Shown: piece by piece, positions 21,563-45,516 of the stretch
Position numbering within the stretch: the stretch's first letter is position 1
Layout: each line of letters begins with the position of its first letter
NCBI GenBank assembly: GCA_043798915.1
Contig: JAZDOG010000089.1
Span: forward strand, 33,158 to 97,157
DNA length: 64,000 nt
Direction of reading: 5' to 3'
Source: Pseudomonadota bacterium
GTDB taxonomy: Bacteria > UBA10199 > 2-02-FULL-44-16 > JAAZCA01
The notes under the pieces: generated by a model
The model's database searches: none
Told to the model about the DNA's origin: nothing
The model's input: only the letters and a program-made list of their open reading frames with translations
Translations under genes and position numbers: made by a program

Positions 21563-21570
21563 ATGGATTC

Positions 21571-22827
21571 CTATATGACTTTCAAGACCAGCGCCGTTAT
21601 GTCGTCGCGCGGAGGATCCGGATCGACGAACGCCTGCACCGATTCCACGATGACGTCGCATATCTGGCGCGCGCTTCCCACCAGCGCATCGGAGAGGACC
21701 TCGACGAGCCTCGCCCTTCCGAAGCGCTCCCCGCGGCGATTTGCCGCTTCGGTGATCCCGTCGGTGTAGAGCAGGATGACATCCCCCTTTGAGACGACCA
21801 TCTGCCTCTCGTGGAAGACCCCGCGCGCCTCGAGCCCGATGAGGCAATCGCCCGTCCCTATCTCCTCGAACTGCCCGCCGGCGGCGCGCCAGACGATCGG
21901 AGCGGGATGGCCGGCCGACGTGTACTGGATGACCTGCCGGGAGCGGAGATACTGCAGATAGATCATCGATATGAATTGCTCCGACTGAAAGAGATCGTCG
22001 TAGAGAATCGTGTTGATCCTCTGCACTAGGAGCGAAGGCGAATAGTCCGCGTCCATCTGGGAGCGGATGGCCGCCCGAAACGCGGCCATGATGAGCGCCG
22101 CCCCGATCGAGTGCCCCGACACGTCGGCGACGACGAAGGATGGGCGCTTCGCATACGTGAAGAAGCAGTCGTAGTAATCGCCCCCGACGCGCTCCGCGGT
22201 GATGAGCCGCCCTGCCACCTCCAGCCCCTCGACCTCAAGCGGGGAAGCGGGCAAAAGCCGGTACTGTATCTGACGCGCGATCTCCAGCTGCCCGCGGAGC
22301 TTCTCCGTCGCATTGCGCTCTTCGACGAGGCGGCAGATGTGGAGATAGGCCGCGGCCTGGTTGGCAAGCGTAGTGAGGAGCTGGAGATCATCCTCGGTGA
22401 AGGCGCTTCCGTCGGTCCTGTCGGTGACGTTTATAACGCCCAGGGGCTCCTCGCCCACCTTCATGGGGAAACACGTGACCGGCGCGGAGATGAGGGACTT
22501 CGTCTGATAGCGGTCGCGGCCCGGGCCCATCTCAGACGCCTTGATTTCCGAAACGAGCAGCGGCTCGTGGCTCGCGAAGACCTTGCCCGATATCCCCTCG
22601 CCGACCTTCACGACGGCGTGCTCCATGATCCCGGGCTCCATGCCGCGGGCCGCCGCGATGCGCAGCGCGCCGATTGCGGGATCATAAGTCATGATCGAGG
22701 CCTTCTCGACACCCAGAAGGCGCACCACTGCATCGAGGATCAGCTCGTAGACCTCCCTCGGGTCCTGGGCCCGGACGATCGCCTGGCTTAAACCGTGGAT
22801 CGCATCGATTGTCGCTCTTTCATTCAT
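21571..22827 (-). CDS. GAF-domain PP2C-type serine phosphatase (RsbU/SpoIIE-like) of a partner-switching module.
   Basis: N-terminal GAF domain, C-terminal PP2C domain ('SGHSIGAALIMA', 'LLYTDGITEA'). Overlaps the upstream anti-sigma kinase gene by 4 nt. Confidence 0.8.
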   Translation of the reverse strand: MNERATIDAIHGLSQAIVRAQDPREVYELILDAVVRLLGVEKASIMTYDPAIGALRIAAARGMEPGIMEHAVVKVGEGISGKVFASHEPLLVSEIKASEMGPGRDRYQTKSLISAPVTCFPMKVGEEPLGVINVTDRTDGSAFTEDDLQLLTTLANQAAAYLHICRLVEERNATEKLRGQLEIARQIQYRLLPASPLEVEGLEVAGRLITAERVGGDYYDCFFTYAKRPSFVVADVSGHSIGAALIMAAFRAAIRSQMDADYSPSLLVQRINTILYDDLFQSEQFISMIYLQYLRSRQVIQYTSAGHPAPIVWRAAGGQFEEIGTGDCLIGLEARGVFHERQMVVSKGDVILLYTDGITEAANRRGERFGRARLVEVLSDALVGSARQICDVIVESVQAFVDPDPPRDDITALVLKVI

Positions 22828-23228
22828 AGCTCGTAGACCATCCTCAAAGAATGGCGCCCGTTCTTCATGCGGCTCTCCACCCGTGTCATCAGGCGGTGGA
22901 TGAGGAAGAGGCCCCTGCCATGGCTCACCGGCTCTTCCGGTTCAGACACCACGTGGCGGCCTATGCCGCAACCGGTGTCGACCACCTCGATCGTCATGCC
23001 GGACAAAGACAAGGCAAGCGAGACGCGGATCGGCAACCGCCTCCTGCGGCGGTGGGCGTGGAAGATCGCATTATCGACAGCCTCTATCAAGGCCAAAGTG
23101 CACGCTGTGACGGCCTTTGGAGGCAAGGCCCTGAGCCCCGCGACGCTTACCGCCACAGAGACCCACTGGCGCAAAAGCGCCAGATAGCGGGTGTCGCTCC
23201 TGATCGTGAAGGCGCAGCGAAATGGCAT
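22824..23228 (-). CDS. Anti-sigma regulatory factor, RsbW/SpoIIAB-like GHKL serine kinase.
   Basis: HATPase_c motifs 'EAVDNAIFHA' and 'VVDTGCGI'. 134 aa, the typical size. Confidence 0.75.
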   Translation of the reverse strand: MPFRCAFTIRSDTRYLALLRQWVSVAVSVAGLRALPPKAVTACTLALIEAVDNAIFHAHRRRRRLPIRVSLALSLSGMTIEVVDTGCGIGRHVVSEPEEPVSHGRGLFLIHRLMTRVESRMKNGRHSLRMVYEL

Positions 23229-23240
23229 AGGCGTCTCGCG

Positions 23241-23585
23241 TTACGGTTTTTTGGAGAACTGCCGCACGGCGGCGTTCCAGTCGGCGCAGACTTCGAAGAG
23301 CCGGTGCAGCCTCGTGATCTCGAATATCGTCTTCACCTCGTCGGAGAGGGCGGCCACCTTGACGTCCCCGCTGCGGCTGCGCACACGGCGCAGCAGCGAG
23401 ATGAGAACCCCGAGCCCCATCGAATCGATGAACGTGAGATTCGTGCAGTCGATCACGAAGCGCGTTGCGCCCCCGCTCACGAGATCGTAGGCGATCTTCT
23501 TGAACGCCGACACCGTATCGGCATCGAGGCTCCCGCCGCAGTGCATGACATGAATGCCGTTCTCCTGTTTCACTTCGATGTTCAT
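23241..23585 (-). CDS. STAS-domain anti-sigma-factor antagonist (RsbV/SpoIIAA-like).
   Basis: Conserved phospho-Ser region 'FIDSMGLGVL'. 114 aa. Confidence 0.8.
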   Translation of the reverse strand: MNIEVKQENGIHVMHCGGSLDADTVSAFKKIAYDLVSGGATRFVIDCTNLTFIDSMGLGVLISLLRRVRSRSGDVKVAALSDEVKTIFEITRLHRLFEVCADWNAAVRQFSKKP

Positions 23586-23610
23586 GGGAAACTCCTTTCT
23601 TGAGCTGTGT

Positions 23611-24993
<1,383 letters not shown>

Positions 24994-25012
24994 CTCGCTC
25001 GCCTCCTGTCCA

Positions 25013-26437
<1,425 letters not shown>

Positions 26438-26443
26438 GAATTC

Positions 26444-26523
26444 CTCCCCCTCCTTTGTAAGGAGGGGCTAGGGGAGGTAGATCCATCGCTGACTATTTTG
26501 ATCTACCCCACCCTTCCCTCCCC

Positions 26524-26541
<18 letters not shown>
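26444..26541. repeat. Copy A of an approximately 95-bp imperfect palindromic repeat element (two terminal CCCTCC..TTTGTAA..GGAGGG hairpins around an inverted GGGTAGATC / GATCTACCC core).
   Basis: Shares an identical 41-nt block (GATCTACCCCACCCTTCCCTCCCCTTACAAAGGGGAGGGTT) with a second copy at 59371-59465. Overlaps the stop codon of the upstream activator gene and the RBS of the next. Confidence 0.55.
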
Positions 26542-27936
<1,395 letters not shown>

Positions 27937-27937
27937 G

Positions 27938-29113
27938 TTATCCCCCCTCTGTCGATGCCGGCAAACGTACTACAAACTCGGTTCCGCCGCCCTTCACATC
28001 CTCGCACGATATCTCGCCGCCGTGCTCCTTCACTATTCGATAGCTGATCGAAAGGCCGAGCCCCGTGCCCTTGCCCGGCTCCTTGGTCGTAAAAAATGGA
28101 TCGAAGATGCGATCTCTGTTCTCGGGCGAAATGCCGACGCCGGTGTCGCGGACCCTCACCTCGACGAATCCATCCCCATTGCTGCAGCCGGTCTTCACGG
28201 TGAGGACCCCGCCCTTGGGCATCGCATGGCATGCGTTCGTTATGAGGTTCAAGAAGACCTGCTGCAGGCGGTCGGGAATCCCGACGACCTGCGGGAGTCG
28301 CGCGGCACCGTCGAAGTTGAGCTCGATGTTCATCGACCGGAGCTCTCGCTGCACGAACGGAAAGACCTTCTCCAGGAGGAGATTCAAGTCCACGCCGTGC
28401 CTCTCCCTGTCCTTGGAGACGCGCGAAAAATCCAGGAGGTCGGCGACGATCTTCTTGCACCTGACTGCCGCCTTTTCCATCTCGTCCAAGTCGGCCAGCA
28501 GCGTCTTGTTTCCATGCACGTCGCGCTTCATGAGCTGGGCGAAGGCGAGAATCCCGCCAAGGGGATTGTTGATCTCGTGGGCCACGCCGCCGGCGAGCAT
28601 GCCGATCGCCGCCATCTTCTCCTGCTGGATGACCTCGCGCTGGAGGCGGCGCTCTTCGGTGATGTCGCGGTAGTAGAGGACGGCGGACCCGGCCGCGGCG
28701 GCGCTCATCGGGTAAGCGCTCGTCTCGTAATCCCTGCGGCTTATCTGGCAGCCCAGCACGGAGGTCGTGTGCGCGTCGCGCTTGAGGGCCGCGGGCAAAG
28801 GGCATCCTTCGCACGGCGCCGTGCGCCCGGCGAAGACATCGTGGCACCTCTTGCCGATTATCGTCGCGATGTCCTTGCCGCAGGCCGCGGCGAGGGAGAG
28901 ATTTGCGCGAATTATCTCATAGTCGCGCGAGACGATCTGCACGGGGGATGTGATGGCATCGAAGGTGGACTCCCACATGTACTTGCCGCGGGAGATGATC
29001 CCAACCAGTTCCTCGAGCTTTGCGGCGCGGCCGGAGAGGATTTTGAGCCTCTTGACGAACTCTTCCCGGCTCAAGGATTCAATGGATGGGTCTTTTTTTC
29101 TGGATGAGGCCAT
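27938..29113 (-). CDS. PAS-domain sensor histidine kinase (cytoplasmic).
   Basis: PAS region, H-box 'AHEINNPL', and HATPase 'DTGVGI...GTGLGLSI'. Confidence 0.85.
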   Translation of the reverse strand: MASSRKKDPSIESLSREEFVKRLKILSGRAAKLEELVGIISRGKYMWESTFDAITSPVQIVSRDYEIIRANLSLAAACGKDIATIIGKRCHDVFAGRTAPCEGCPLPAALKRDAHTTSVLGCQISRRDYETSAYPMSAAAAGSAVLYYRDITEERRLQREVIQQEKMAAIGMLAGGVAHEINNPLGGILAFAQLMKRDVHGNKTLLADLDEMEKAAVRCKKIVADLLDFSRVSKDRERHGVDLNLLLEKVFPFVQRELRSMNIELNFDGAARLPQVVGIPDRLQQVFLNLITNACHAMPKGGVLTVKTGCSNGDGFVEVRVRDTGVGISPENRDRIFDPFFTTKEPGKGTGLGLSISYRIVKEHGGEISCEDVKGGGTEFVVRLPASTEGG

Positions 29114-29286
29114 ACGGTAACGAGATTGCTCGTCATCGATGGTCTACACGAAGGGGTGACAAATAGCCAGCGTAATTTTGACGCCTGACCTAACTGGTCT
29201 ATTTTAAATGTTATTTAAAAATATTCCATCTGGTGGGTGTGTTAAAAATAACCCGGATGACCGGAAGGAAAAACCGCTAGTTCACA

Positions 29287-32200
29287 CTATCGCGCTGGCT
29301 GAAAGGTGAAGGAAATATCATCTGAGACCTCGCTCTTTTTCACGAGGCCGCGAGGCAGCTTCTTCCTTCTTGCAATTTGGCATAGACGCTCTCCGAATTC
29401 TTTTGAATCACCTTCCGTGCCCTCACCAACTTTGCATCCAACATCTCCGGAAGGATCGACGGTATATTTAAGGCTCCCCGTGGCCGCGAAGTCGGGATTC
29501 CTTTTCAAAAAACGCTCGTAACAATACGAGAACTCCTTCTTCAGCTCATCCCTAAGACGCTGGAATATAACCGCAGAATCTCCCTTCGACCACTGGCTCA
29601 ATTTCCCCAGCTCGCCAGTCAGGCGTTTGATTGCCCCCTTGACTTCACCTCTTCTGTTTCTGTCAGCTGGTCCTCGCAGCTCCTCCAGCGTGATCTTTCC
29701 GTATTCCTCCAGAGCGCTTTTGATATCCCGGATCTTTATATCCCGAAGGTCGTTCAGGCGCGCCTCTTCCTCGAACGAACGCGCCAGATAATAATGAGCA
29801 CTGGCTACAAATGAGGGCGCTTTTGCGCGGATAGTCGAAGCAGTTGCGGAAAAAGACGGGGATTCCATGTCCCTGAAAAACTTCTGATAGGAAGCGGTTG
29901 CCTTATCATAGTAACCTACCCCCATAGCAAAATAAAGACGACCCTGACAGGCAGAGGACTGGATAAAATCAGGATGGAGCCCGCGAAACTCTTCGAGGGC
30001 CTTAATCTCCTTTTCTTTGTCGTCGTCTGATTGGCTGGTATACGACCAGCCGAGATCCGCTCTGGCAGCGAGGAGTTTGGCCTCGGCTTCCTTTTTTTTG
30101 TCTTTCATCTCAAGCTCTGATGCTATCCTGATGATCCCCTCGAGGGTGGAAATCAATCTCTCTTGCTCCGCGATGGATTTTGACTTCTTCGCATCACTTG
30201 AGAATCGTTTAAAGGTCACTTTGGCTTCATCTGTGAATGTTTTAAGGGCTTTGTCGCGCGCCTCGTCTATCTCTCTGTCACGCTCATTGGCCCATTTTTT
30301 CTGCTCGTCGGATGGCTGAAGCCCTCCATATCTAATAACCAGCCCCTTGGCTGACTTGATGCAATCAATGACACTTTTATAATTGCGCGCATGCACGGCT
30401 TTCTTAACTCCATCAAGTGAGGCCCGCACCTCCTCGAGAACCTCCTTTTTTGCCTTTTCATTTCTCTCTGCCTCGGTCAGCGGGGGTGGAGGTGGTTTTG
30501 GCACGACTGGTGCAGGCACAGGCGCCGGCGGTTTGGGCGGAGGAGGCGGAGCGACATGTGGCAGTTGGGCAACCGGCGCATTTTTAGCAGGAGGTGCAAC
30601 AGGAACGGTCGGCCTGAGAGCGGGAGTCGCGGCTGCAGGAGGTGCTGGAGCAACCGAAGGTTTTGTTGGCGGCGGAGCAGGCGGTGCAGCGGGAGCGGTC
30701 GGTTTGGGAGAGGGAGTGCCGGCTGCCGGAACCGGTGAACGGGGTTCGGTTTTGTCCTGAGGGGCAAGCCCAAGCAGCTTTGCTATATTCACATCAACCA
30801 TCTGCCTCGTCGCCCCCTTCGGACCACTGAATAGATAAATTTTAGGCTGGTCGGGGACCTCTGCCCCCCCCCTGTTGACGCCCGGCCAGTTCACGCTGTC
30901 GACAAACACGAGCGGCACCAGAGGCTTGCCATTCTCCACCTGTTTGTCCTCAAGCGCGACAAGCCTGCGCCTGAGTTCAGAGGTCTTCTCCTTGCCGGCC
31001 CCTTCCGTCGGAGCCACGAACACAATGACGCGCTCGTCTGTATTGTAGATTGCGCCGGCCGCCTCGCTGTTGGCAACTTCGACAAAACCCACCGGCTTGT
31101 AAGTTTGTGCCTTCCATCTGCCGCCATGCTGGGCGACCTTATAGATGTGGTATTTGGCTTTTTTGGATTCTATCTCCCTTGGTTCAATGCCGAGTTTTCG
31201 CAGAAATCCGCGGCGAAGACTTTGGAGTGTTGCCCCATCATGGCGCTCAGGCATATGCGGGATGAAGAAATAACGGCGCTTGATTTGCAAGTCCCTGCCC
31301 TCGCTGTAGAGACGATAGGTCAAATCGCCCGCCTGCGTATCGGTCGGATCACCGACGATGACAAACGCATCGCCGGCGCCCGGACCGAAGTGGGCCCCAA
31401 AATGACGATAATCGATATAGCAGAAACCATTCTCGTCGGTCGTCTCGCCGTGCTTCTTTATCAGTTCCTCAACATCGACATCTGGCACTTCGATCGGGGC
31501 CTCGATGCCCACAAAGCGGCCGTCCTTGATATCCCCTTCGAACTGGATCTTTGCGTATTTCGCAGTGGGCTGCGGCATCAAGATCCCAAGCCTGTTGGCA
31601 ATCTGTCTCCCCCGCTTGCTTGAAATATCCACGACGGCGATCATGCCCCTGTTCCCTGCTTTATCTTTCGTCGGCTCAGTATTATTCACAAGCTTCACAA
31701 AATCTTCTTCTCTGAAGAACGCGCCCGTGACAAAAACGGTGACGGAGCTTTTCCATTCATTTTTGTAGTTATCAAGCGTGAGTTCGACCACTCCGGGCTT
31801 GAAGGCCTGCTCCGGCTTCAGGGCAGGCGCCGTCGGGCCGGCGGGAGGGAACTCGGCATCTGGGACCTCGGAATGACTCACAAGCGCCTCCCGGATATCG
31901 AAGTCCTCACAGTGGCGATTGCCGGCGCTGCCGGTGCAGATTAAGAATGCCCGGCCGCTTAATTGCACATGGGGCAGATCCGCGAGTTTTCCCTTCAACT
32001 TCAATGGCACATAGATCGCCTCGACGTCGAGCTTTCCTCCGATGTCCTTTTTATTTATGAGTCTATCGTCCAACTTGGCCATGATCTTCTGGTTCTTGGC
32101 TTCCTTGTCCCGGTCCTCCTCCTCTATGACCACCAGAACATTGCCCGATGACTTTAAGATGTAGCGTTCGAGATCGCCGGCGGATTTGATATCCGTGAAC

Positions 32201-33864
32201 ATCACGACCTTGCGCGAAGTCTTCCTGTCCCACAGCTCATTTATCTTCGCCTGTCCCCTGGCAATCATCTCCCCCCAATTTTTCTTATCATCCGCATTCC
32301 CGGTCTTCTCATTCAACTTGGCCGCATCGTTGAATGCAGCGAGGGCCGCATCCTTGTCGCCCTCTTTCCCTGTCCCCTGAAAGACCGCTTTGAGAACAGT
32401 GGCCTTCAAGAAATGGGCGTGTGCCTTGACGGACTCCGAATCCCCTTCCTCGATATGGCCCAGATAAGCCTCAACGAATTTGCGGGCCTGCTCCAGCTCC
32501 AGGTTTACCTTGCCGGCATCCTGCGCGGCTTGAATCGCACCATCCTCAAAAATCTTCGCCGTCTTGAAATATTTCTCGATCTTCCCATCGATGTCCTTCA
32601 GCATCCTGGAGCGGACATCCGAACGTTTTTGCTTCGCAGCCAAAACCTGCTGGAACTCTTCGTCATTCTGTGTCTGCATGTCTCTGAGTCTATTATAAGC
32701 GTCATCAAGGACGGCAAAAACGGTGCTCATCGCATCCAGGTGGCGGGGATCGATCGCGAGCGCCTTCGCCTTTCTCTCCTGCTCCGCAATCATCTTATCG
32801 ACCGCACCCAGCTCTTCCTTGAGCTTTTTCGCCGCCGCCTTGTCTATCTTCGGGGGTTTTGCAGCAGGCGGTTTGGCCGCAGCCGCATCTTTCTGCGGCG
32901 TCTCTGGTTTCTGGACAGCGTCGTCCTTGAACTTCCTGGTTCCGAAACTGGCTTCAAAACTGAATTTGGCCGGACCGGCTTGATCCAGCTTCTCCGCGGT
33001 CCTCTCATTAGGAACCCCGCGCGGTGCAAACTTTGAGAGGAGAATCGGGTCCTTCTCGACTATGAAACGAGAGGCATCGGGATTATCTATTCTTACCTGA
33101 TCCAGGTATTTTTTGAGACCCCTGTCGCTCAAGTCGGCTGCGATGATCACCACCTTGTTAGCAGATTTGATGCTCTCCTCAATCTCGTCGGGCCCGATCA
33201 CAGGTATTCCGTACATTTTTTTTGCAGGCTTTGCGGCGGGCGGCTTTTCTGCGGCTGCCGCCTTGTCCGCCTTCTGAGGAGCCTCGGGCTCCTTGTCAGC
33301 ATCGTCCCTGAACTTCATGCTTCCGGAAATGAGTTCAAAACTGAATACGGACGGACCGGCCTGATCCAGCTTGTCCGCGGCCCTCTCCTGCGGAACACCG
33401 CGCTGCGCAAGCTTCGAAAGAAGACTCGAATCCTTTTCGACTATGAAGAGACAGGCTTCGGAATTGTCTTTTTTTACCTTATCCAGATTTTTTTTGAGGC
33501 CCTTGTCGCTCAAATCGGCCGCGACGATCACCACCTTGTCGGCGGAATCGATGCTCTTTTGAAGCTCGTCGGCCCCGATCACGGGTATTCCGTACAGGTT
33601 CTTTATCTTTGTTCTTGCCTTTGTCGGAACCTGGCATGCTCCAAAGAGTTTGATGATCGAGGGAAGCTGGCTGGCAAACTCGCCCTTTGTGGAAAACGAC
33701 CTGTTAAACTTTCCATCGCAGGACTCGAATTCAAATTTTCCGCCCGATTTCGTGTCGTGCTCAAACTTCTCCATCTGCTCCTCGCAATAGGAGCGTTTGT
33801 CCTCGTCGGCCGGACTGGAGTAAGTCTTTTTGCAGACATCGAAGGGGCCGCTTCCACCTGTCAT
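29287..33864 (-). CDS. Very large (about 1525-aa) multidomain protein of unknown function. N-terminal 4-Cys region, two tandem about 125-aa duplicated modules, coiled coil, three alpha/beta (thioredoxin-like?) modules, about 110-aa Pro/Ala-rich linker, alpha-helical TPR-like C-terminal domain.
   Basis: Single uninterrupted ORF. Start moved to MTGGSGPFD (RBS GGAGGAG 6 nt upstream); the listed GTG start is spurious. Duplicated module YGIPVIG.DE...KVVI.AADLSD.GLKK seen twice. Low-complexity linker PAPPAPPPTKPSVAPAPP... Confidence 0.7.
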   Translation of the reverse strand: MTGGSGPFDVCKKTYSSPADEDKRSYCEEQMEKFEHDTKSGGKFEFESCDGKFNRSFSTKGEFASQLPSIIKLFGACQVPTKARTKIKNLYGIPVIGADELQKSIDSADKVVIVAADLSDKGLKKNLDKVKKDNSEACLFIVEKDSSLLSKLAQRGVPQERAADKLDQAGPSVFSFELISGSMKFRDDADKEPEAPQKADKAAAAEKPPAAKPAKKMYGIPVIGPDEIEESIKSANKVVIIAADLSDRGLKKYLDQVRIDNPDASRFIVEKDPILLSKFAPRGVPNERTAEKLDQAGPAKFSFEASFGTRKFKDDAVQKPETPQKDAAAAKPPAAKPPKIDKAAAKKLKEELGAVDKMIAEQERKAKALAIDPRHLDAMSTVFAVLDDAYNRLRDMQTQNDEEFQQVLAAKQKRSDVRSRMLKDIDGKIEKYFKTAKIFEDGAIQAAQDAGKVNLELEQARKFVEAYLGHIEEGDSESVKAHAHFLKATVLKAVFQGTGKEGDKDAALAAFNDAAKLNEKTGNADDKKNWGEMIARGQAKINELWDRKTSRKVVMFTDIKSAGDLERYILKSSGNVLVVIEEEDRDKEAKNQKIMAKLDDRLINKKDIGGKLDVEAIYVPLKLKGKLADLPHVQLSGRAFLICTGSAGNRHCEDFDIREALVSHSEVPDAEFPPAGPTAPALKPEQAFKPGVVELTLDNYKNEWKSSVTVFVTGAFFREEDFVKLVNNTEPTKDKAGNRGMIAVVDISSKRGRQIANRLGILMPQPTAKYAKIQFEGDIKDGRFVGIEAPIEVPDVDVEELIKKHGETTDENGFCYIDYRHFGAHFGPGAGDAFVIVGDPTDTQAGDLTYRLYSEGRDLQIKRRYFFIPHMPERHDGATLQSLRRGFLRKLGIEPREIESKKAKYHIYKVAQHGGRWKAQTYKPVGFVEVANSEAAGAIYNTDERVIVFVAPTEGAGKEKTSELRRRLVALEDKQVENGKPLVPLVFVDSVNWPGVNRGGAEVPDQPKIYLFSGPKGATRQMVDVNIAKLLGLAPQDKTEPRSPVPAAGTPSPKPTAPAAPPAPPPTKPSVAPAPPAAATPALRPTVPVAPPAKNAPVAQLPHVAPPPPPKPPAPVPAPVVPKPPPPPLTEAERNEKAKKEVLEEVRASLDGVKKAVHARNYKSVIDCIKSAKGLVIRYGGLQPSDEQKKWANERDREIDEARDKALKTFTDEAKVTFKRFSSDAKKSKSIAEQERLISTLEGIIRIASELEMKDKKKEAEAKLLAARADLGWSYTSQSDDDKEKEIKALEEFRGLHPDFIQSSACQGRLYFAMGVGYYDKATASYQKFFRDMESPSFSATASTIRAKAPSFVASAHYYLARSFEEEARLNDLRDIKIRDIKSALEEYGKITLEELRGPADRNRRGEVKGAIKRLTGELGKLSQWSKGDSAVIFQRLRDELKKEFSYCYERFLKRNPDFAATGSLKYTVDPSGDVGCKVGEGTEGDSKEFGERLCQIARRKKLPRGLVKKSEVSDDISFTFQPAR

Positions 33865-34011
33865 GACCTGCTCCTCCAAAAGGGCGTACGGACATCCCCC
33901 CACTTTATTATCGGCAGATTTCCAATAATGTTGCGTCCTTTTGGCTGAAAAATGAACCGATAGCCATCGTCAGCAACGGCTTACGCTAAAATAGACATGA
34001 ATATCAATTAA

Positions 34012-34800
34012 TTATATCGATTTCTTGATACGTTGGATGAACATTGCCTTGCCGCTTTTCTCATCTATTTCGATCACAACCCCTTCCAATCTCACGCCTC
34101 CCTCGGCTACTTTGAACTTTCGCTTGTCGCCGGTGAGGAAGCGATGCAGGGCAATATCCTTGTCCAGGCCGATGACCGAGGCGTGAGGGCCGGTCATCCC
34201 AAGATCGGAGATATAGGCGGTCCCGCCGGGCATGATCTCCTCGTCGGCTGTCTGGACATGCGTGTGCGTGCCGACGAAGGCCGCGACGCGGCCGTCCAGA
34301 TACCAGGCCAGCGCGCGCTTCTCGCTCGTGGCCTCGGCGTGAAAATCGACGAATATCGCGTCGCAGAGCTTCGAAAGCTTAGGGATGAGGGCGTCCATCG
34401 CGACGAAGGGACTCTCCGCCTTTTTGCCCTTCTCATCCATGTAGACGATCCCCTGGATGGAGACGACCCCGATGCGCGCCCCGCCGCGGGCGGCGAAGAC
34501 GCACCAGCCCTTTCCGGGCAGCGACTCGTGGACGTTTTGGGGACGGAGTATCGGATGCGTGTCGAAATATGGATGGAGTTCGTCGTGCTCCCAGATGTGG
34601 TTGCCGGCCGTGAGGACATCGATCGGCCCCTCGAGTATCTCATCAGCGATCTTCGGCGTGAGCCCCCTGCCCCCTGCGGCGTTCTCGGCATTCACCACGA
34701 CGAAGTCGATGCCCATCTCTCGGACGATGCCGGGCAGAAGCTCGCGGAGCGCCTGCCTCCCGGGCTTTCCAAATATGTCTCCAATCGCCAATAACTTCAT
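34012..34800 (-). CDS. ymdB: YmdB-family metallophosphoesterase (TIGR00282; 2',3'-cyclic-nucleotide phosphodiesterase).
   Basis: MKLLAIGDIFGKPGR... with 'VVVNAENAAGG' and 'GNHIWE' metallophosphatase motifs. Follows rny, as in Bacillus. Confidence 0.85.
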   Translation of the reverse strand: MKLLAIGDIFGKPGRQALRELLPGIVREMGIDFVVVNAENAAGGRGLTPKIADEILEGPIDVLTAGNHIWEHDELHPYFDTHPILRPQNVHESLPGKGWCVFAARGGARIGVVSIQGIVYMDEKGKKAESPFVAMDALIPKLSKLCDAIFVDFHAEATSEKRALAWYLDGRVAAFVGTHTHVQTADEEIMPGGTAYISDLGMTGPHASVIGLDKDIALHRFLTGDKRKFKVAEGGVRLEGVVIEIDEKSGKAMFIQRIKKSI

Positions 34801-34805: not shown

Positions 34806-36374
34806 CTACTTTGCGTATTCTGTGGCCCTGGTCTCGCGGATCACGGTGACCTTGATCTGGCCTGGGTAGGTCATCTCCTGCTCGATCTTCTTTGCGATGT
34901 CCTTTGAGAGGACGGTCGCCTCCGCGTCGTTCACCTGATCGTTGACGACCATGACCCTGATCTCGCGGCCGGCCTGAATGGCGTAGGCCTTCTCGACGCC
35001 CTTGAATGATGTCGATATGCGCTCTAACTCCTCAAGCCTCTTGACGTACGCCTCGAGCACCTCCCTGCGCGCGCCGGGGCGGGCGCCGGAGAGGGCGTCG
35101 GCAGCGTCGACGACGAGGTCGAGCGGAGAGGTCTGTTCGAGATCCTCGTGGTGCGCGCCGATCGCATGGCATATCTCCGGATCCTCCCGGTACTTCTTCG
35201 CATACTCCATGCCGATGAGCGCGTGGCTCCCCTCCACCTCGTGGCTCACCGCTTTTCCGATGTCGTGCAGGAGCCCCGCGCGCCGGGCCTTGTTCTCGTC
35301 GATCCCAAGCTCGGCGGCCATCATGCCAGCGAGATACGCGACGTCCCGCGTGTGCTCCAGGACGTTCTGCGCAAAACTGTATCGATACTTGAGCGAGCCC
35401 AGGAGCTTCACGAGCTCCGGGTGGACGTTCGGGACATTGAGTTCCAGGCACAGCTGCTCGCCGGCTTCCTTTATGGAGCCCTCGACCTCTTTGGTCACCT
35501 TGGCGACCATCTCCTCGATGCGCGTCGGGTGTATTCGGCCGTCGGCTATCAGGTTCTGGAGGGTGATCCTGGCCACCTCGCGCCTCACCGGATTGAAACC
35601 GGAGAGGATCACCGCCTCTGGCGTGTCGTCGATCACGAAGTCTATGCCGGTGGCGGCCTCAAGCGCGCGGATGTTTCTGCCCTCGCGGCCGATGATCCTG
35701 CCCTTCATCTCCTCGCCCGGCAGCTGCACGACGGAGATCGCCCGCTCGGACGAATAGTCTGAGGCCATACGCTCCATGGCTGTCGAGATGATGAGCCTCG
35801 CCTTCTTGGAGGCATCCTCCTTAGCCCTCTCCTCAATCTCCAGGATCTCGCGCGCCGCGTCCTTCTTGGCATCCTCGACGATCGACTCGCGGAGCTGGCG
35901 CCTGGCCTCCTCCGCAGAGATGCCGGCCACCTGCTCCAGCTGGCGGCGGACATCCGCGACCATATCCATGAATTTTTTCTCCAGGCCCTCGGCGTGCTTC
36001 TTCCGGTCGACGATGGACTGCTCCTCCTTGTGGAGCTCCTCCTCTTTCTTCTCGACCAGGTTGAACTTCTTCTCGAGGTTGTCCTCCTTGGCCTGGAGGC
36101 GCTTTTCCATCTGCTGCAGCTCGCGCGTCTTCTCCTGCGATTCCTTTTCGAACTCGGCCTTGGCCTTGAGCTGGACGTCCTTGGCCTCCAGCTCCGCCTC
36201 CTTCCTGATGGAGCGCGCCTGCTGCTCGGCATCCTTGAGGATCGATGCCGCCTTGCCCTCCGCCTCTTCCGTCTTCTTCTTCGCGATCTGCTTGCGTATC
36301 GCAACGCCCACGCCCAGACCGACACCGAGGGCCACGACGATAAATATGATTGCCTGCCATAGCTGCAGTAGCAT
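34806..36374 (-). CDS. rny: Ribonuclease Y (N-terminal TM, coiled coil, KH, HD domain).
   Basis: N-terminal TM helix, Lys/Glu-rich coiled coil, KH motif '[15 protein letters not shown]', HD motif 'LLHDIGK'. Confidence 0.9.
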
Positions 36375-36427: not shown

Positions 36428-37072
36428 TCAGCACTTGATGAGCCGCTTCTCGGTCACTATCCAGTCGAGCTTTCTCCCTCGCACGGCCGTGGGGAGATCG
36501 GGGACGACCTGAAAATCATAGGCGAGCGCGATGCGCTTGCCGCGGAACCCCGCAAGGCACTTGTCGTAAAAACCCTGGCCGAACCCCATTCGCCCGCCAT
36601 GCAGGTCGAAGGCGACGCCGGGGACGATGAGGACGTTCAACGTGTTCAATTCTCGCAACCTGCTCTGCTTTGCTGAGGGTTCCCTCATGCCGACCTCTGT
36701 GAGGCGCAGGTCCTCGAGCTTCATGACGCGGAAAAAGGCAAGGCCGCCGGCCTCTGCATCGACCGCAGGGTAGTATATCTCCTTACGATTCTTGTCCCCC
36801 TCCTGGAAGAGAAGCTCGGTGCGGATTTCATTCTTGAAGGCCGCATAGAGGCCGACCCGCAGGGCCGTTCGAAACTCGCCCATCTGCAGCACGCGGTGCC
36901 CTATTGCATCGCTCGCCTGCTCCACCTCCTCGATCTTCAGTTCATCGCGGGCGGACATCATCCGGTTGTAGAGTTGAAGCTTGGACTGGCTCGACATGGC
37001 TCCATCCTCCTCAATGAATTTCAGGAAGACACCTTTAAGCCACTCGAACTGTGGATGGAAACAACCGAACAA
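36428..37072 (-). CDS. ygfA: 5-formyltetrahydrofolate cyclo-ligase (YgfA/MTHFS). The true start may be MSSQSK at about 36997.
   Basis: Family motifs 'LIVPGVAFD..G.R.G.G.GFYD' are present. Confidence 0.8.
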   Translation of the reverse strand: MFGCFHPQFEWLKGVFLKFIEEDGAMSSQSKLQLYNRMMSARDELKIEEVEQASDAIGHRVLQMGEFRTALRVGLYAAFKNEIRTELLFQEGDKNRKEIYYPAVDAEAGGLAFFRVMKLEDLRLTEVGMREPSAKQSRLRELNTLNVLIVPGVAFDLHGGRMGFGQGFYDKCLAGFRGKRIALAYDFQVVPDLPTAVRGRKLDWIVTEKRLIKC

Positions 37073-37289: not shown

Positions 37290-37764
37290 CGATCATCCAT
37301 CAGTTCAAGCGCCGCTTCAAAATCGCAAAGCCTATAACGCATCCCTTTTAACAGTTCAACTGTGAATTCTTGCCCCTGTATCGCGGGCTGTTCAAAAGGG
37401 CCCAGATGCGAGGCGTCCGACCGAGGCCGGCCGAGTCGTACTTGGATGTACGTCGCAGGCCGCGCCGAGGGAGGAGAACGAAGCAGATGGGCCCTTTTCA
37501 ACAGCCCGCCCCTAAAAAAATCCCCCCGCTTGGGCCGTTTGGTGTCACCATTTTTGAACCCGACTCAATCAGGTGGGTGATCGTATTGCTGCTTTAGGCT
37601 TCCCCACCCCGTCAAAAAGGCCGCACCGCCGGCCTTTCAGAAAGGGCGGGGCATGCACACCACAGCAAGGGACAATCCCCAAAATGGCAATGTCGGTTCT
37701 AAAATTACGACACCGAGGTCGCACCCAGCAGGGGGAAACCCTTGTCCTATGTGAAAGAGCAAAA

Positions 37765-38192: not shown

Positions 38193-40226
38193 TTATACAG
38201 GCAGAAAGAGGATTTCCCGGGCTGGAATATCGACCTCGCTCACCTCGATGAGGACCCGATCGCCGATCTTGAACGCCCTCTTCTTCTTCTGGCCGCGGAT
38301 CAGCATCCCGGCCTCCTCAAAACGGTAGCGATCATCGGAGAGCGCCTCGATGCGGACGAGCCCTTCCACGAAGAAGTCGATGAGTTCGACAAAAAATCCG
38401 AATTTGGTGAGATGCGAGACCACCCCTTCGAACTTGTCGCCCACATGCGCCTGCATGAACATCGTCGCATAAAGTTTGGCCATCTCGCGCTCTGCGTCCA
38501 TGGCGATGCGCTCGCGGCGTGAGCAATGCCCCGAAATTTCCTCCAGAGGCCGCTTCTGCGCGTCTTTGCTGCCGCGCACCTGCGCTTCGACGTTCAAGGC
38601 GCGCGTGAGGAGGCGGTGGACGACGAGGTCAGGATAGCGCCTGATCGGCGAGGTGAAGTGACAATAGCACCTGGAGACCAAGCCGTAGTGGCCCTTGTTC
38701 TCTGCACTGTAGACGGCCCGCGACATCGACCTCAGGAGCATGTGGTTGACGAGCCTCTCCTCGGGCGTCCCCCGCACCTTCTCCACCACCTCCGCCAAGC
38801 TTTGGGGCGGTGCATCCGCATCGAACCGGAATTTGTAACCAAGGTTGTGGAGGAGGATCGAAAACTCGCGCAGGCGGTCCGGCGGCGGCGGCTCGTGGAT
38901 GCGGTAGATGCATCCGGCGCGCCTCTTGGTCAGAAACTCGGCCACCGCCTCGTTAGCCGCTATCATGAATTCCTCGATCATCATGTGGCTCACATAACGC
39001 TGGGCGCGCACGATGTCGGAAACGTCACCCTGCATGTCTATGACGATCTCGGGTTCGGGGAGATCGAAGTCGATCGAGCCGCACCGCAGCCGCTTGGCGC
39101 GCATGCGCTTATAGCATTCCTCCATCAGCTCGAACGCGGGGAGGAGCTTGCGGTAGCGGTCGCAGGTCGGAGCGTCGCGATCCACGAGTATCTTCTTCAC
39201 CGCCGTGTAGGTCATCCTCTCCCTGCTCTGGATGACGCTCCGGCAGAAGCTCGTCCGGACGGTGTTGCCCTGCCCGTCGATATCCATCTCCGCGGTCATG
39301 GTGAGCCGGTCCTCGTCAGGCTTCAAGCTGCAGAGGATGTTAGAAAGCTGCTCGGGGAGCATCGGGAGACAGTCGCCGGGGAAATAGACTGATGTGCCGC
39401 GTTCGTAGGCCGCCCCATCGAGCGCCGTCTGCGGCCGAACGAAATGGGATACATCGGCGATCGAGACCCAGAGGCGAATGAGCCCGCCTTCGATGCGCTC
39501 GACAGCCACCGCGTCGTCGAAGTCCTTGGCGCTCTCGCCGTCTATCGTGACAAACGGCACGTCGCGGAGGTCGCGGCGCGAAGCGATCTCCCCCTCGTCC
39601 ATGAGCCTGAATGCGGCATCCGCATCCTTGAGCACGGCCGGCGGAAAACCGCGGCTCAACTGGTGCCTGGTCATCACGGCGGATTTCTCCGTTGCATCAT
39701 CGCCGCGCTGCCCAAGTATCTCGACGACCTCCCCAACCATCTGAGCCGAACCCGAGGGATAGCTCAGAATCCGGACCACAACGTTGTCGCCTGCTTTCGC
39801 GCCACCGCGCTTCTCCTGTGGAACTACGATCCGGTGACGGACGCGCTGGTCATCGGTGATCACCTGCAGGCCGGAACCCGACCTCTCGAGCCTCCCCATG
39901 AGGCGCATCACTCGGCGCTCCACAACGCGGACGATCCGTCCTTCGACCTTTCCGCCACGCCCCGGCGCCGTGCGCACCTCGACCAGGTCGCCGCCCAACG
40001 CGTCGCCCATAAACCTTGCGGGCACGAAGACATCGTCTTCGCCCGCGCGCGCGGAGATAACGAAACCGTAGCCGTCGCGGTGGAGGCGAAGATCTCCCGC
40101 GCGAAGCGCCGACTCGCCGCCGCCCTTTTGCGGCGCAGCCTTCGCCTGGGTGCGCTCCTTCTTGCCTGGCCTTCCAGCGCGCCTGACAATGCCGCCACTC
40201 CCCTTTTGTCTCCCGCGTCCTCTCAT
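38193..40226 (-). CDS. rnr: Ribonuclease R (RNase II family 3'-5' exoribonuclease: cold-shock/OB, RNB, S1).
   Basis: RNB catalytic motifs 'FTIDGESAKDFDDAV' and 'HYGL...YCHFTSPIRRYPDL'. C-terminal S1 domain and basic tail. Confidence 0.9.
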   Translation of the reverse strand: MRGRGRQKGSGGIVRRAGRPGKKERTQAKAAPQKGGGESALRAGDLRLHRDGYGFVISARAGEDDVFVPARFMGDALGGDLVEVRTAPGRGGKVEGRIVRVVERRVMRLMGRLERSGSGLQVITDDQRVRHRIVVPQEKRGGAKAGDNVVVRILSYPSGSAQMVGEVVEILGQRGDDATEKSAVMTRHQLSRGFPPAVLKDADAAFRLMDEGEIASRRDLRDVPFVTIDGESAKDFDDAVAVERIEGGLIRLWVSIADVSHFVRPQTALDGAAYERGTSVYFPGDCLPMLPEQLSNILCSLKPDEDRLTMTAEMDIDGQGNTVRTSFCRSVIQSRERMTYTAVKKILVDRDAPTCDRYRKLLPAFELMEECYKRMRAKRLRCGSIDFDLPEPEIVIDMQGDVSDIVRAQRYVSHMMIEEFMIAANEAVAEFLTKRRAGCIYRIHEPPPPDRLREFSILLHNLGYKFRFDADAPPQSLAEVVEKVRGTPEERLVNHMLLRSMSRAVYSAENKGHYGLVSRCYCHFTSPIRRYPDLVVHRLLTRALNVEAQVRGSKDAQKRPLEEISGHCSRRERIAMDAEREMAKLYATMFMQAHVGDKFEGVVSHLTKFGFFVELIDFFVEGLVRIEALSDDRYRFEEAGMLIRGQKKKRAFKIGDRVLIEVSEVDIPAREILFLPV

Positions 40227-42143: not shown

Positions 42144-42635
42144 TCACTCCCCTTTCAACCAACCGCGCTCGTCTAACGTTTTAACAATAGACTCGGCCAT
42201 CTTCGGTATCGCCTCCGCAACCTTTGGAGTCGGGCTCTCTCCAAATGAAAATTCGTCCTTCACCTCCATCACGAATATTGCGATCTCGTTCGGGAAAGGG
42301 ACGCCCATCCTCTTCGCCAGCTCGCATGCCGTGGCGAAGTCGATCTGATGGAGCGACGAGAGGCGCGCAGAAGGCTTGAGGGCGGCCGGATCCAGCTCAT
42401 AGAAATCGCCAGGCGTCCCGCCCTTCGTGTGGATGGCATCTATTATCACGGCCCTGTCGTATCCAGAAAGGAGGTCCACGAAGTTAAAACCCCCGACAGA
42501 GGCCTCTTTGATCGAGATTCGAGACTTCGACCTCAACAGAGATTCAATATCGCGCACAACATAGATGCCGGCGCCGTCGTCGGTCAGGATGGTATTCCCG
42601 AGGCCTAGAATTATTGTTTTGGAAGGCATTCTCAA
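42144..42635 (-). CDS. Hydrogenase maturation endopeptidase (HyaD/HycI family).
   Basis: 'ILGLGNTILTDDGAGIYV' motif and 163-aa size. Overlaps mvhA by 4 nt. Confidence 0.85.
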   Translation of the reverse strand: MRMPSKTIILGLGNTILTDDGAGIYVVRDIESLLRSKSRISIKEASVGGFNFVDLLSGYDRAVIIDAIHTKGGTPGDFYELDPAALKPSARLSSLHQIDFATACELAKRMGVPFPNEIAIFVMEVKDEFSFGESPTPKVAEAIPKMAESIVKTLDERGWLKGE

Positions 42636-44092: not shown

Positions 44093-44097
44093 ATGAA

Positions 44098-45502: not shown

Positions 45503-45516
45503 TTCAGCACTCCGCT

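What the first reader, a model, noticed from the sequence alone, without database searches (positions are those of the whole stretch)
29287..33864. Giant 1525-aa protein of unknown function with duplicated modules and a 110-aa polyproline linker
A single uninterrupted 4.6-kb ORF, in the same orientation as and just downstream of rny-ymdB, and upstream of a sigma-54 two-component cluster. No catalytic signature (P-loop, HExxH, CxxC redox and so on) is recognisable. It has an N-terminal 4-Cys segment and two tandem about 125-aa modules (YGIPVIG.DE..SI.SA.KVVI.AADLSD.GLKK...FIVEKD..LLSK.A.RGVP.ER.A.KLDQAGP..FSFE), each followed by a Lys/Pro/Ala-rich spacer. Three further alpha/beta modules follow, with V.VF...beta-strand patterns resembling thioredoxin- or TIR-like folds. 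Then a PAPPAPPPTKP... linker of about 110 residues and an alpha-helical TPR-like C-terminal domain. No signal peptide or TM segment is present. Proteins of this size and low-complexity organisation in a high-GC anaerobe are candidates for cytoskeletal or scaffold, polar-organising, or unknown-system roles.
Basis: seen in the sequence. Interest (0 to 1): 0.6.

Follow-up and report, generated by a model that had tools for sequence, protein, structure and literature searches.

The report
Orphan giant thioredoxin-fold array protein
The 1525-residue ORF is a real gene from a very rare, fast-evolving protein family of an uncultured bacterial lineage, built mostly of thioredoxin-shaped modules that have lost their catalytic cysteines, so it probably binds other proteins rather than catalysing a reaction.

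Summary
An uninterrupted 1525-codon ORF lies on the minus strand (29287-33864), with a good RBS, its own promoter-like motif and a terminator-like hairpin.

The N-terminal domain has four invariant Cys and matches nothing known. The C-terminus is helical and ends in a weak TonB-C-like tail.

Only 9 relatives exist among 1.84 billion representative proteins, plus 1-2 found by synteny. They sit in a variable slot upstream of a conserved histidine-kinase/three-sigma-54-activator cluster.

All members carry an ECF-type promoter motif (GCAAC-N16-CGA). In relatives, two giant exported neighbour proteins share it. There is no sigma-54 promoter.

Best reading: a non-catalytic, PDI/calsequestrin/CnoX-like binding scaffold in an envelope-related regulon. 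Its function and cellular location remain inferred.

I rate it a new variant of a known kind, of moderate interest.

The parts
33907..33934 (-). Promoter-like bipartite motif GCAACATTATTGGAAATCTGCCGATAAT (AAC, 16 nt, CGA), 43 nt upstream of the ATG
   Evidence: This is the only site in the 64-kb window above 12.6 bits with the 17-site PWM; it scores 35.4 bits. The same motif lies upstream of every family member and of neighbour genes A and B in relatives. On independent loci it recurs in A/B intergenic regions, with 0 hits in 1.22 Mb of unrelated loci.
33871..33877 (-). Ribosome-binding site GGAGGAG, 6 nt before the ATG
   Evidence: Read directly from the sequence.
29287..33864 (-). Coding sequence, 1525 aa plus stop
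   Evidence: It is identical to NCBI MFH0800174.1, 'MAG: hypothetical protein V2A66_08365 [Pseudomonadota bacterium]'.
33604..33864 (-). N-terminal Cys-rich domain (aa 1-87). N-terminus is M-x-G-G...C. C11, C27, C49 and C77 are invariant.
   Evidence: It is the family signature and is duplicated in P0004, P0007 and P0008. Most members have 6 Cys; the query and P0006 lack Cys 3 and Cys 5 together. The profile has no significant match in PDB or Pfam.
33283..33603 (-). Duplicated module A (aa 88-194), a thioredoxin-like module without CxxC
   Evidence: Self-BLAST. The profile of this module type matches core module T2 at hhalign probability 86%. The Trx fold here is inferred, not modelled.
33223..33282 (-). 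Lys/Pro/Ala-rich spacer A (aa 195-214)
   Evidence: Read from the sequence.
32902..33222 (-). Duplicated module B (aa 215-321)
   Evidence: 66% amino-acid and 80% DNA identity to module A over the ungapped pair; dS 0.44, dN/dS 0.41. BLAST local alignments give 66-68%.
32830..32901 (-). Lys/Pro/Ala-rich spacer B (aa 322-345)
   Evidence: Read from the sequence.
32230..32829 (-). Helix-prone domain (aa 346-545), shared only with relative P0006
   Evidence: phmmer against P0006 gives E 1e-9. TPR hits are only sub-threshold. This domain was not modelled.
31870..32229 (-). Thioredoxin-like module ending in a C643-x8-C652 hairpin (aa 546-665)
   Evidence: It is homologous to the C-terminal Cx8-11C module of relatives (alignment). 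That module type matches the CxxC-bearing Trx modules of P0002, P0003 and P0008 at hhalign probability 82%.
30760..31806 (-). Conserved family core (aa 687-1035): three tandem thioredoxin folds without CxxC
30478..30759 (-). Pro-rich linker (aa 1036-1129): 39 Pro and 19 Ala in 94 residues
   Evidence: It is absent from the other family members found by HMMER.
29575..30477 (-). C-terminal helical region (aa 1130-1430)
   Evidence: In the single-sequence AlphaFold model the first ~140 residues have pLDDT 62-90 apart from a dip to 49 near residue 95, and are helical. The rest is helical but low-confidence. Fold searches give only generic helical-repeat, TPR or 3-helix-bundle matches.
29290..29574 (-). 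C-terminal tail (aa 1431-1525) with TonB-C-like topology (helix-strand-strand-helix-strand)
   Evidence: NCBIfam NF033768, the AgmX/PglI C-terminal domain, matches at E 2e-4 and 21 bits, below its 40-bit cut-off. Model pLDDT is 52-75 with helix-strand-strand-helix-strand order. Foldseek finds the FusB (TonB homologue) CTD 7zc8 at probability 0.96, E 0.11, and H. pylori TonB-CTD 6sly at probability 0.93, E 0.15. Pfam TonB_C is not detected.
29252..29265 (-). Terminator-like hairpin followed by a T-run, 22 nt after the stop codon
   Evidence: It is a weak 5-bp stem, so this is only a consensus match.

Best explanation
What it is:
- This is a genuine, independently transcribed gene. It encodes a cytoplasm-synthesised, signal-less "beads-on-a-string" protein.
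- From N- to C-terminus it contains:
  1. a novel Cys-rich N-domain;
  2. six thioredoxin-fold modules that have all lost the CxxC active site (two recent duplicates, one with a Cx8C hairpin, three forming the conserved family core);
  3. a helical domain lying between the duplicated modules and the Cx8C module;
  4. a 94-residue Pro-rich rod;
  5. a helical C-terminal domain ending in a TonB-C-like tail.
- It belongs to a very rare, fast-evolving, domain-shuffling family confined to one uncultured lineage that NCBI labels Pseudomonadota. The family occupies a variable slot next to a conserved HK/sigma-54 cluster.
- It is driven by an ECF-type promoter. In relatives that promoter also drives two giant exported Cys-rich proteins.

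How it most likely works (inferred, not shown):
- It is a non-catalytic binding scaffold or holdase-like adaptor of that envelope-related regulon.
- The redox-dead Trx modules would offer peptide- or protein-binding surfaces, as PDI b/b', ERp27/29, calsequestrin and CnoX domains do.
- The Pro-rich rod would set a distance of up to about 29 nm if fully polyproline-II.
- The helical and TonB-C-like end would dock a partner.

Shown: gene reality, the fold of the core, loss of CxxC, rarity, synteny, and the shared promoter motif.
Inferred: the Trx fold of the other three modules, the TonB-C-like tail, the binding function and the cellular location.
For: Gene reality:
- ORF, RBS, promoter-like motif and terminator-like hairpin are all present.
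- The family is conserved, and dN/dS between the internal copies is 0.41.

Fold:
- The AlphaFold core model has pLDDT 84.6 and pTM 0.82.
- hhalign links the module types: duplicated type to T2 at 86%; CxxC-bearing modules of relatives to T3 at 95% and to the Cx8C module type at 82%.
- The query has no CxxC. Relatives P0002, P0003 and P0008 each keep one CxxC module.

Rarity and evolution:
- Only 10 proteins reach E <= 1e-3 among 1.84 billion representatives. Nine of the ten 90% clusters hold a single sequence and one holds three.
- Core identity is 24-31%, while neighbouring genes are 58-79% identical.
- GC3 is below that of neighbours in all four loci tested.

Synteny:
- The relatives whose contigs extend downstream (P0005, P0007, P0010) lie directly upstream of the same HK / three EBP / STAS / RsbW-like / GAF-PP2C / FolC block. 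P0004, P0009 and P0010 share the same upstream genes A, B and C.

Promoter:
- 17 sites score 23-35 bits upstream of family genes and of genes A and B. Nothing else in the window scores above 12.6 bits, and nothing else in the training loci above 16.
- Independent loci confirm the motif, and 1.22 Mb of control sequence gives zero hits.
- ECF promoters typically have AAC at -35 and CGT at -10 (PMC3426412).
- A is a lipoprotein and B has a signal peptide.

Precedents for non-catalytic Trx folds acting as binders:
- YbbN/CnoX combines a Trx domain with a TPR domain and is a holdase (PMC10998233).
- Calsequestrin has three Trx-like domains (PMC8080761).

Tail.
Against: - No experiment or ligand supports the binding role. 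It rests on analogy with other redox-inactive Trx folds.
- Three of the six Trx modules are assigned only by profile similarity (82-86%).
- The TonB-C-like tail is below every significance threshold taken singly: 21 bits against a 40-bit cut-off, Foldseek E 0.1, on a model with mean pLDDT 56.
- Location is unresolved. There is no export signal, yet several features are typical of extracytoplasmic proteins: paired loss of Cys, a Cx8C hairpin, a Pro-rich rod, a TonB-C-like end, and co-regulation with exported proteins.
- Genes A, B and C are not in this 64-kb window. The co-regulation argument is therefore transferred from relatives.
- The same promoter motif also precedes cdnL-like genes in more distant relatives. 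The regulon may be broader than envelope functions.
- The sigma factor was not identified.
Confidence: 0.4

Rival explanations
1. Redox or metal role. The family would be a bacterial PDI-like thiol-disulfide oxidoreductase/isomerase or a metal-binding factor. The invariant four-Cys N-domain and, in relatives, a CxxC Trx module would act on the Cys-rich exported proteins A and B. This member, lacking CxxC, would work through the N-domain Cys or as the substrate-binding partner.
For: - Four Cys are invariant in 11 domain copies.
- Cys 3 and Cys 5 are lost together in the query and P0006, as expected for a bonded pair.
- One bona fide CxxC Trx module is present in each of P0002, P0003 and P0008, next to inactive ones. 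That is the PDI a/b logic.
- A and B are exported, contain many Cys, and share the promoter motif.
Against: - The query has no CxxC at all, and neither do several other members.
- No signal peptide is present in any member, so access to exported substrates is unexplained.
- The Cys spacing (x15, x21, x27) matches no known Zn-knuckle or Fe-S motif.
- The N-domain profile hits nothing in PDB or Pfam.
- The paired Cys loss is a single evolutionary event in two related sequences.
Confidence: 0.2
2. Accessory component of the adjacent signalling module. The protein would be a sensor partner or an output of the histidine kinase and its three sigma-54 activators, explaining the conserved adjacency.
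For: - The gene lies directly upstream of the orthologous HK-EBP x3 block in the window and in the relatives whose contigs extend downstream (L001, L002, L003). These genomes range from about 48% to 68% GC.
Against: - At least six related loci keep the HK-EBP block with an empty slot (L088, L089, L091, L095/L097, L098, L102). Others have unrelated upstream genes.
- The HK start lies 92-178 bp downstream. In the window this gap holds a terminator-like hairpin and a promoter-like site.
- No sigma-54 -24/-12 element lies upstream of the gene in any locus.
- Its promoter motif is shared with A and B, not with the HK or EBPs.
Confidence: 0.1
3. Cytoskeletal or polar-organising scaffold. It would be a HubP/FimV/PopZ-like hub that recruits clients through its modules and low-complexity linkers.
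For: - Its size, multi-domain beads-and-linkers organisation, helical segments and lack of enzymatic motifs fit such a hub.
Against: - No Pfam or NCBIfam model of any kind, including those for the domains that characterise HubP/FimV, matched at E <= 1.
- There is no TM anchor.
- Extreme rarity and presence/absence variation among close relatives argue against a core cell-organising role.
- An ECF-type promoter is unusual for such a housekeeping function.
Confidence: 0.1
4. TonB/TolA-like envelope-spanning tether. The Pro-rich rod and TonB-C-like end would reach across the periplasm to an outer-membrane partner, as GltG and GltJ do in Myxococcus gliding.
For: - A 94-aa Pro-rich rod is present.
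- The tail gives a weak NF033768 (AgmX/PglI C-terminal) hit and weak Foldseek hits to TonB CTDs.
- GltJ (AgmX) and GltG (PglI) are TM proteins with a flexible or Pro-rich periplasmic segment and a TonB-C domain (PMC11135422, PMC3169522).
Against: - There is no TM helix or signal peptide.
- No ExbB/ExbD or TolQ/TolR genes were seen among the window ORFs scanned against Pfam. Not all window ORFs were scanned.
- The rod and tail are absent from the other family members found by HMMER, so this cannot be the family's function.
- All tail evidence is sub-threshold.
Confidence: 0.08
5. Calsequestrin-like high-capacity cation buffer or polymer.
Against: - The protein is not acidic. Across the ten segments tabulated (aa 1-690 counted once) K+R is 252 and D+E is 230, and every segment is near neutral.
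- No acidic C-terminal tail is present.
Confidence: 0.03

Closest known systems
Protein disulfide isomerase family and its non-catalytic relatives (PDI b/b' domains, ERp27, ERp29/Windbeutel)
   Same: - Tandem thioredoxin folds, most or all of them redox-inactive and used for binding.
- Some relatives (P0002, P0003, P0008) combine one CxxC module with inactive ones, as PDI does.
   Different: - Bacterial, with no signal peptide or retention signal.
- No CGHC or any other CxxC in this protein.
- No detectable sequence homology (Pfam and PDB sequence searches are empty).
- Six modules, plus a novel Cys domain, a Pro-rich rod and a helical/TonB-C-like end.
Calsequestrin
   Same: - Three consecutive CxxC-less thioredoxin folds in one chain (PMC8080761).
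   Different: - Not acidic.
- The domain arrangement does not superpose beyond one domain.
- No evidence for cation binding or polymerisation.
CnoX/YbbN chaperedoxin (Trx domain plus TPR domain)
   Same: - The same logic of a degenerate Trx fold joined to helical, TPR-like parts that acts as a holdase or adaptor (PMC10998233).
   Different: - About five times larger, with six Trx modules.
- No sequence similarity.
- The TPR character of the helical parts is unproven.
TonB / GltG (PglI) / GltJ (AgmX) C-terminal architecture
   Same: - A Pro-rich spacer followed by a small alpha/beta C-terminal domain.
- Weak NF033768 and Foldseek TonB-CTD signals.
   Different: - No N-terminal TM anchor.
- A 300-aa helical region lies between the rod and the tail.
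- Scores are below the family cut-offs, and Pfam TonB_C is not detected.

Membership tests
Thioredoxin-fold superfamily (structural) | Trx fold: central beta-sheet flanked by helices | tested here: met
Thioredoxin / PDI catalytic domains | CxxC active-site motif after strand beta-1 | tested here: not met
   No CxxC occurs anywhere in the protein. In module T3 the CxxC position of relatives' modules corresponds to the A-G-K-E stretch, read by eye against the module alignment.
Thioredoxin fold | Conserved Pro (cis-Pro position) before the penultimate strand | tested here: inconclusive
   Pro1007 is invariant in the core alignment (A1 position 321) and directly precedes a predicted strand. Pro171 and Pro298 sit at the equivalent place in the duplicated modules (read from the sequence). 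The cis conformation cannot be checked with these tools.
PDI family | ER or periplasmic targeting signal and an a-b-b'-a' arrangement with catalytic a domains | tested here: not met
   No signal peptide and no catalytic domain.
Calsequestrin | Strongly acidic composition giving high-capacity Ca2+ binding | tested here: not met
   Net charge is near zero in every segment.
TonB family | N-terminal TM anchor that couples to ExbB/ExbD | tested here: not met
   The maximum 19-residue hydropathy is 0.97, so there is no TM segment. No exbB/exbD or tolQ/tolR genes were seen among the window ORFs scanned against Pfam; not all ORFs were scanned.
TonB family | Pro-rich spacer | tested here: met
   aa 1036-1129 are 41% Pro.
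TonB_C / AgmX-PglI C-terminal domain (NF033768) | C-terminal TonB-C domain scoring above the family cut-off | tested here: inconclusive
   NF033768 scores 21.4 bits against a 40-bit cut-off, E 2e-4. No Pfam TonB_C hit. Predicted order is helix-strand-strand-helix-strand with pLDDT 52-75. Foldseek finds 7zc8 at probability 0.96, E 0.11, and 6sly at probability 0.93, E 0.15.
HubP/FimV-type polar scaffolds | Family-specific domain models plus a TM anchor | tested here: not met
   No Pfam or NCBIfam model of any kind matched at E <= 1 apart from the two weak NCBIfam tail hits. No TM segment.
CnoX/YbbN | Trx domain fused to a recognisable TPR domain; HOCl-activated holdase activity | tested here: inconclusive
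ECF-sigma-dependent promoter | AAC at -35 and CGT-type at -10 with a 16-17 nt spacer; cognate sigma / anti-sigma pair | tested here: inconclusive
   The motif G(C/A)AAC-N16-CGA is conserved and specific. The -10 element reads CGA rather than CGT. No sigma-factor domain was found in the ten 163-225-aa window ORFs scanned. No transcription-start data are available.

The most novel reading that the evidence does not exclude
The gene may belong to a previously undescribed, lineage-specific envelope system with these properties:
- One alternative (ECF-type) sigma factor would co-drive two giant exported Cys-rich proteins (A and B) and a hypervariable, signal-less thioredoxin-array protein.
- That protein would either be exported by a non-classical route or act as the cytoplasmic assembly chaperone of the system.
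- In this genome it has additionally captured a Pro-rich rod and a TonB-C-like end. That would make it an anchor-less TonB-like tether joined to a PDI-like substrate-binding array.
Probability: 0.12. Interest if true: 0.75.

Novelty: new variant of a known kind. Interest (0 to 1): 0.45.

Why it matters
- If the reading is right, multi-domain arrays of redox-dead thioredoxin folds exist in bacteria as a distinct, rapidly diversifying family. Until now this design has been known mainly from eukaryotic ER/SR proteins (PDI relatives, calsequestrin).
- The family comes with a clean, testable regulatory handle: a highly specific ECF-type promoter motif shared with two giant exported proteins of unknown function.
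- That motif defines a small unknown regulon in an uncultured anaerobic lineage. It gives a direct route (motif scan, sigma-factor identification, co-purification) to the function of several orphan giant proteins at once.
- The finding is not a new principle. The fold is known and the function is still inferred.

Tried and rejected
Searches that found nothing useful:
- Pfam, PADLOC, PHROGs and PDB sequence searches on the whole protein gave nothing significant. Pfam on ten fragments gave nothing either.
- The word-indexed protein search found only the protein itself for the full-length query.
- The same tool found nothing, not even self, for the C-terminal fragment or the core alignment. I treat those two negatives as unreliable.
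- The look-up of encoding contigs has no record for the window protein.
- The genome-contig scan with the histidine kinase returned only distant kinases (<= 45% identity) and no family member. The lineage's name therefore remains unknown.
- The metagenome scan with the C-terminal domain found no relative.
- AFDB Foldseek was unavailable.
- The N-Cys domain profile has no significant match in PDB or Pfam.
- The giant protein has no paralogue elsewhere in the window.

Ideas tested and dropped:
- A sigma-54 promoter upstream of the gene was looked for and not found.
- An ECF sigma gene was looked for among ten 163-225-aa window ORFs and not found.
- The idea that the query's unique C-terminus is a fusion with neighbour proteins A, B or C of relatives was rejected: phmmer gave no similarity.
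- Recent horizontal transfer as the cause of the low GC3 is considered unlikely. The family gene has lower GC3 than its neighbours in every locus tested.
- A concatenated N-terminal plus C-terminal construct for structure prediction was drafted as alignment A2. I abandoned it because MAFFT scattered the homologues' ends.
Full report
**1. The observation**

The ORF is real but lies on the minus strand, at 29287-33864. Translation from the ATG at 33864 gives 1525 residues. GGAGGAG sits 6 nt upstream of that ATG. The upstream GTG at 33903 coincides with the end of a promoter-like motif, so it is unlikely to be the start.

The product is identical to NCBI MFH0800174.1, [quoted passage not shown].

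- rny (34806-36374) and ymdB (34012-34800) upstream;
- a PAS histidine kinase (27938-29113) and three sigma-54 response regulators downstream.

A weak terminator-like hairpin (29265-29252) and sigma-70-like hexamers lie between the stop codon and the kinase gene.

I found no TM segment or signal peptide by hydropathy, and no CxxC.

The tandem duplication is confirmed. Residues 88-194 match 215-321 at 66-68% amino-acid and 80% DNA identity, with dS 0.44 and dN/dS 0.41. It is therefore fairly recent, and both copies are under moderate constraint.

- a 200-aa helix-prone domain (346-545) separates the duplicates from the next module;
- there are four further alpha/beta modules, not three;
- the Pro-rich linker is 94 residues with 39 Pro.

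**2. What the modules are**

Sequence libraries are silent. Pfam, PADLOC, PHROGs and the PDB give nothing significant for the whole protein or for ten fragments.

An exhaustive HMMER search of residues 1-1035 against 1.84 billion representative proteins found only nine relatives, at E 1e-28 to 2e-7. All come from metagenomes. Eight of their nine 90% clusters hold a single sequence and one holds three.

The relatives share three things:
- an N-terminal Cys-rich domain;
- alpha/beta modules;
- a roughly 350-aa core equal to query residues 687-1035.

Three relatives (P0002, P0003, P0008) carry a module with a genuine CxxC. Profile-profile comparison ties the module types together:

| Comparison | hhalign probability |
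|---|---|
| CxxC module vs core module T3 | 95% |
| CxxC module vs the Cx8-11C module (query 546-665) | 82% |
| Duplicated module type vs core module T2 | 86% |

The protein thus holds six Trx-type modules. Three are shown by modelling and three are inferred. All lack the active site.

**3. The ends**

*N-terminal domain.* The N-domain starts M-x-x-G-G and has four invariant Cys: C11, C27, C49 and C77. Most members have six Cys. The query and P0006 have lost the third and fifth together. A profile of 11 copies matches nothing significant in PDB or Pfam. I treat it as a new domain. Whether it is disulfide-bonded or binds a metal is open.

*C-terminal region.* The Pro-rich linker and the 396-aa C-terminal region occur in no other member found by HMMER. 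A metagenome scan for close relatives of that region found none.

A single-sequence AlphaFold model of the region is poor overall (pLDDT 56) but gives two usable results:
- a mostly confident helical first 140 residues (pLDDT 62-90, with a dip to 49 near residue 95);
- a moderately confident tail with helix-strand-strand-helix-strand order.

Three weak, independent signals point to a TonB-C-like tail:
- NCBIfam NF033768 (AgmX/PglI C-terminal domain) at E 2e-4, 21 bits against a 40-bit cut-off;
- the predicted secondary-structure order of the tail;
- Foldseek probabilities of 0.96 and 0.93 for the CTDs of FusB (a TonB homologue) and of H. pylori TonB, at E about 0.1.

**4. Genomic context**

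P0007, P0005 and P0010 lie directly upstream of the same block as in the window. The block is HK, three sigma-54 activators, STAS, RsbW-like kinase, GAF-PP2C and FolC. Its genes are 58-79% identical to the window's, while the giant's core is 24-31% identical.

P0004 and P0009 lie on shorter contigs that end at or just past the gene. They share the upstream genes described next.

Upstream, the relatives carry three large genes with no Pfam assignment of function:
- A, a lipoprotein of about 1250 aa;
- B, a secreted protein of about 1100 aa;
- C, a VWA lipoprotein of about 860 aa with its own Pro-rich linker.

None of the three is in this window.

A second metagenome scan used the kinase's specific N-terminal half and returned 37 further loci. 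It shows the position between C and the kinase is a variable slot:
- empty in L088, L089, L091, L095/L097, L098 and L102;
- holding divergent Trx-array genes in L101 (core HMM E 2e-8) and perhaps L099, which also has a Pro-rich linker;
- holding an unrelated basic protein in L107;
- replaced by other neighbours in more distant genomes.

The family gene has lower GC3 than its neighbours in every locus tested. That fits relaxed constraint better than recent transfer.

**5. A shared promoter**

No sigma-54 -24/-12 element precedes the gene in any locus.

Instead a bipartite motif, G(C/A)AAC(T/A)TTT...(C)CGA(N)A with a fixed 16-nt gap, lies 35-75 nt upstream of several start codons:
- every family member, including the tandem paralogue in L006;
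- P0010, whose annotated start is therefore too far upstream; the true N-terminus reads MRSGGASPYSVC;
- genes A and B in all five relatives.

A PWM built from these 17 sites scores them at 23-35 bits. The next best score is 12.6 bits in the 64-kb window and 16 bits in the training loci.

On sequence not used to build it, the PWM finds the A/B intergenic regions of L088, L089, L091, L098 and L101, and the L101 slot gene. It also finds cdnL-like genes in three more distant genomes. It has no hit in 1.22 Mb of unrelated loci.

AAC at -35 and CGT-type at -10 are the hallmarks of ECF sigma promoters (PMC3426412). I therefore read it as an ECF-type promoter. The sigma factor is unidentified: none was found among the ten 163-225-aa window ORFs scanned.

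**6. Mechanism**

The best-supported reading is a non-catalytic binding scaffold or holdase-like adaptor belonging to an envelope-related alternative-sigma regulon. It rests on three arguments:
- the known behaviour of redox-dead Trx folds, such as PDI b', ERp27/29, calsequestrin and CnoX/YbbN (a Trx domain linked to a TPR domain, with holdase activity; PMC10998233, PMC8080761);
- the linker-and-module design;
- the shared promoter.

The function and the cellular location are inferred, not shown.

Rivals, weighed in the dedicated sections of this report:
- a redox or metal role for the invariant Cys;
- an accessory role for the adjacent kinase, weakened by the empty slots and the separate promoter;
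- a polar or cytoskeletal hub, for which there is no positive evidence;
- a TonB-like tether, which lacks an anchor and is not a family-wide feature;
- a calsequestrin-like ion buffer, which the near-neutral composition argues against.

**7. Verdict**

The finding is real and not an artefact.

The protein is an orphan: a new family and architecture built from a known fold, in an uncultured lineage, with an unexpectedly clean regulatory link to other orphan giant proteins. I rate it a new variant of a known kind, with interest 0.45.

Noticed in passing
window 33907-33934 (-); L001 3458-3485(-), 3587-3614, 9896-9923; L002 3614-3641(-), 3752-3779, 9921-9948; L003 3701-3728(-), 3807-3834, 10014-10041; L005 3746-3773(-), 3844-3871, 9938-9965; L006 3649-3676(-), 3805-3832, 9920-9947, 12325-12352: A highly specific ECF-type promoter motif (GCAAC-T-rich, 16 nt, CGA) is shared by the giant family genes and by two neighbouring giant exported proteins (A and B) in relatives. 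It defines a small regulon whose sigma factor is unknown. It recurs in independent loci and upstream of cdnL-like genes in L112, L114 and L116. It is absent from 1.22 Mb of unrelated loci.
   Followed up: partly
L001-L006, about 1-9800 (for example L002 1-3573(-), 3800-7207(+), 7208-9835(-)): In relatives, three large envelope proteins precede the family gene. None has a function assigned by Pfam; only C has a recognisable domain (VWA). A is a lipoprotein of about 1250 aa with many Cys. B is a secreted protein of about 1100 aa with many Cys. C is a VWA lipoprotein of about 860 aa with a Pro-rich linker. None of them is present in the 64-kb window.
   Followed up: partly
window 37519-37737 (-): A 6S RNA (Rfam RF00013, 97 bits) lies directly upstream of a 5-formyltetrahydrofolate cyclo-ligase gene (36428-37072, -). 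This is the classical ssrS-ygfA arrangement. RNase R (38193-40226) lies further upstream.
   Followed up: no
window 20354-29113 (-): A conserved signalling block follows the giant gene: a PAS histidine kinase, three tandem sigma-54 activator paralogues, then STAS (about 23256-23585), an RsbW-like kinase (about 22878-23222), a GAF-PP2C phosphatase (21571-22827) and a FolC-like ligase. The middle activator (25013-26437) has no HTH_8 hit. The third (23611-24993) has only a partial receiver domain. The block is 58-79% identical to L002.
   Followed up: partly
L003 10001-10081 (P0010): The annotated start of relative P0010 is probably wrong. The promoter motif lies inside the called CDS. A GTG preceded by AAAGGGG gives the family-typical N-terminus MRSGGASPYSVC.
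   Followed up: yes
L006 12403-13518: A second, tandem paralogue with the same N-terminal Cys domain and its own copy of the promoter motif follows P0009. It is cut off by the contig end.
   Followed up: partly
window 29287-33864 versus neighbours; L001-L003: The family gene has lower third-position GC than its neighbours in all four loci tested (0.615 vs about 0.8; 0.47 vs 0.51; 0.82 vs 0.91; 0.58 vs 0.70). This is a family property rather than a sign of recent transfer.
   Followed up: yes
window 42144-52097: Genes typical of anaerobes are present: a HycI-type hydrogenase maturation protease (42144-42635), an MvhD/FlpD-like protein (45086-45616) and a 4Fe-4S dicluster protein (51525-52097). 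EF-P is at 10412-10969.
   Followed up: no
method note: The word-indexed protein search returned no hit at all, not even the query's own database entry, for a C-terminal fragment and for the core alignment. Negatives from that tool for sub-fragments of long proteins should not be trusted.
   Followed up: no
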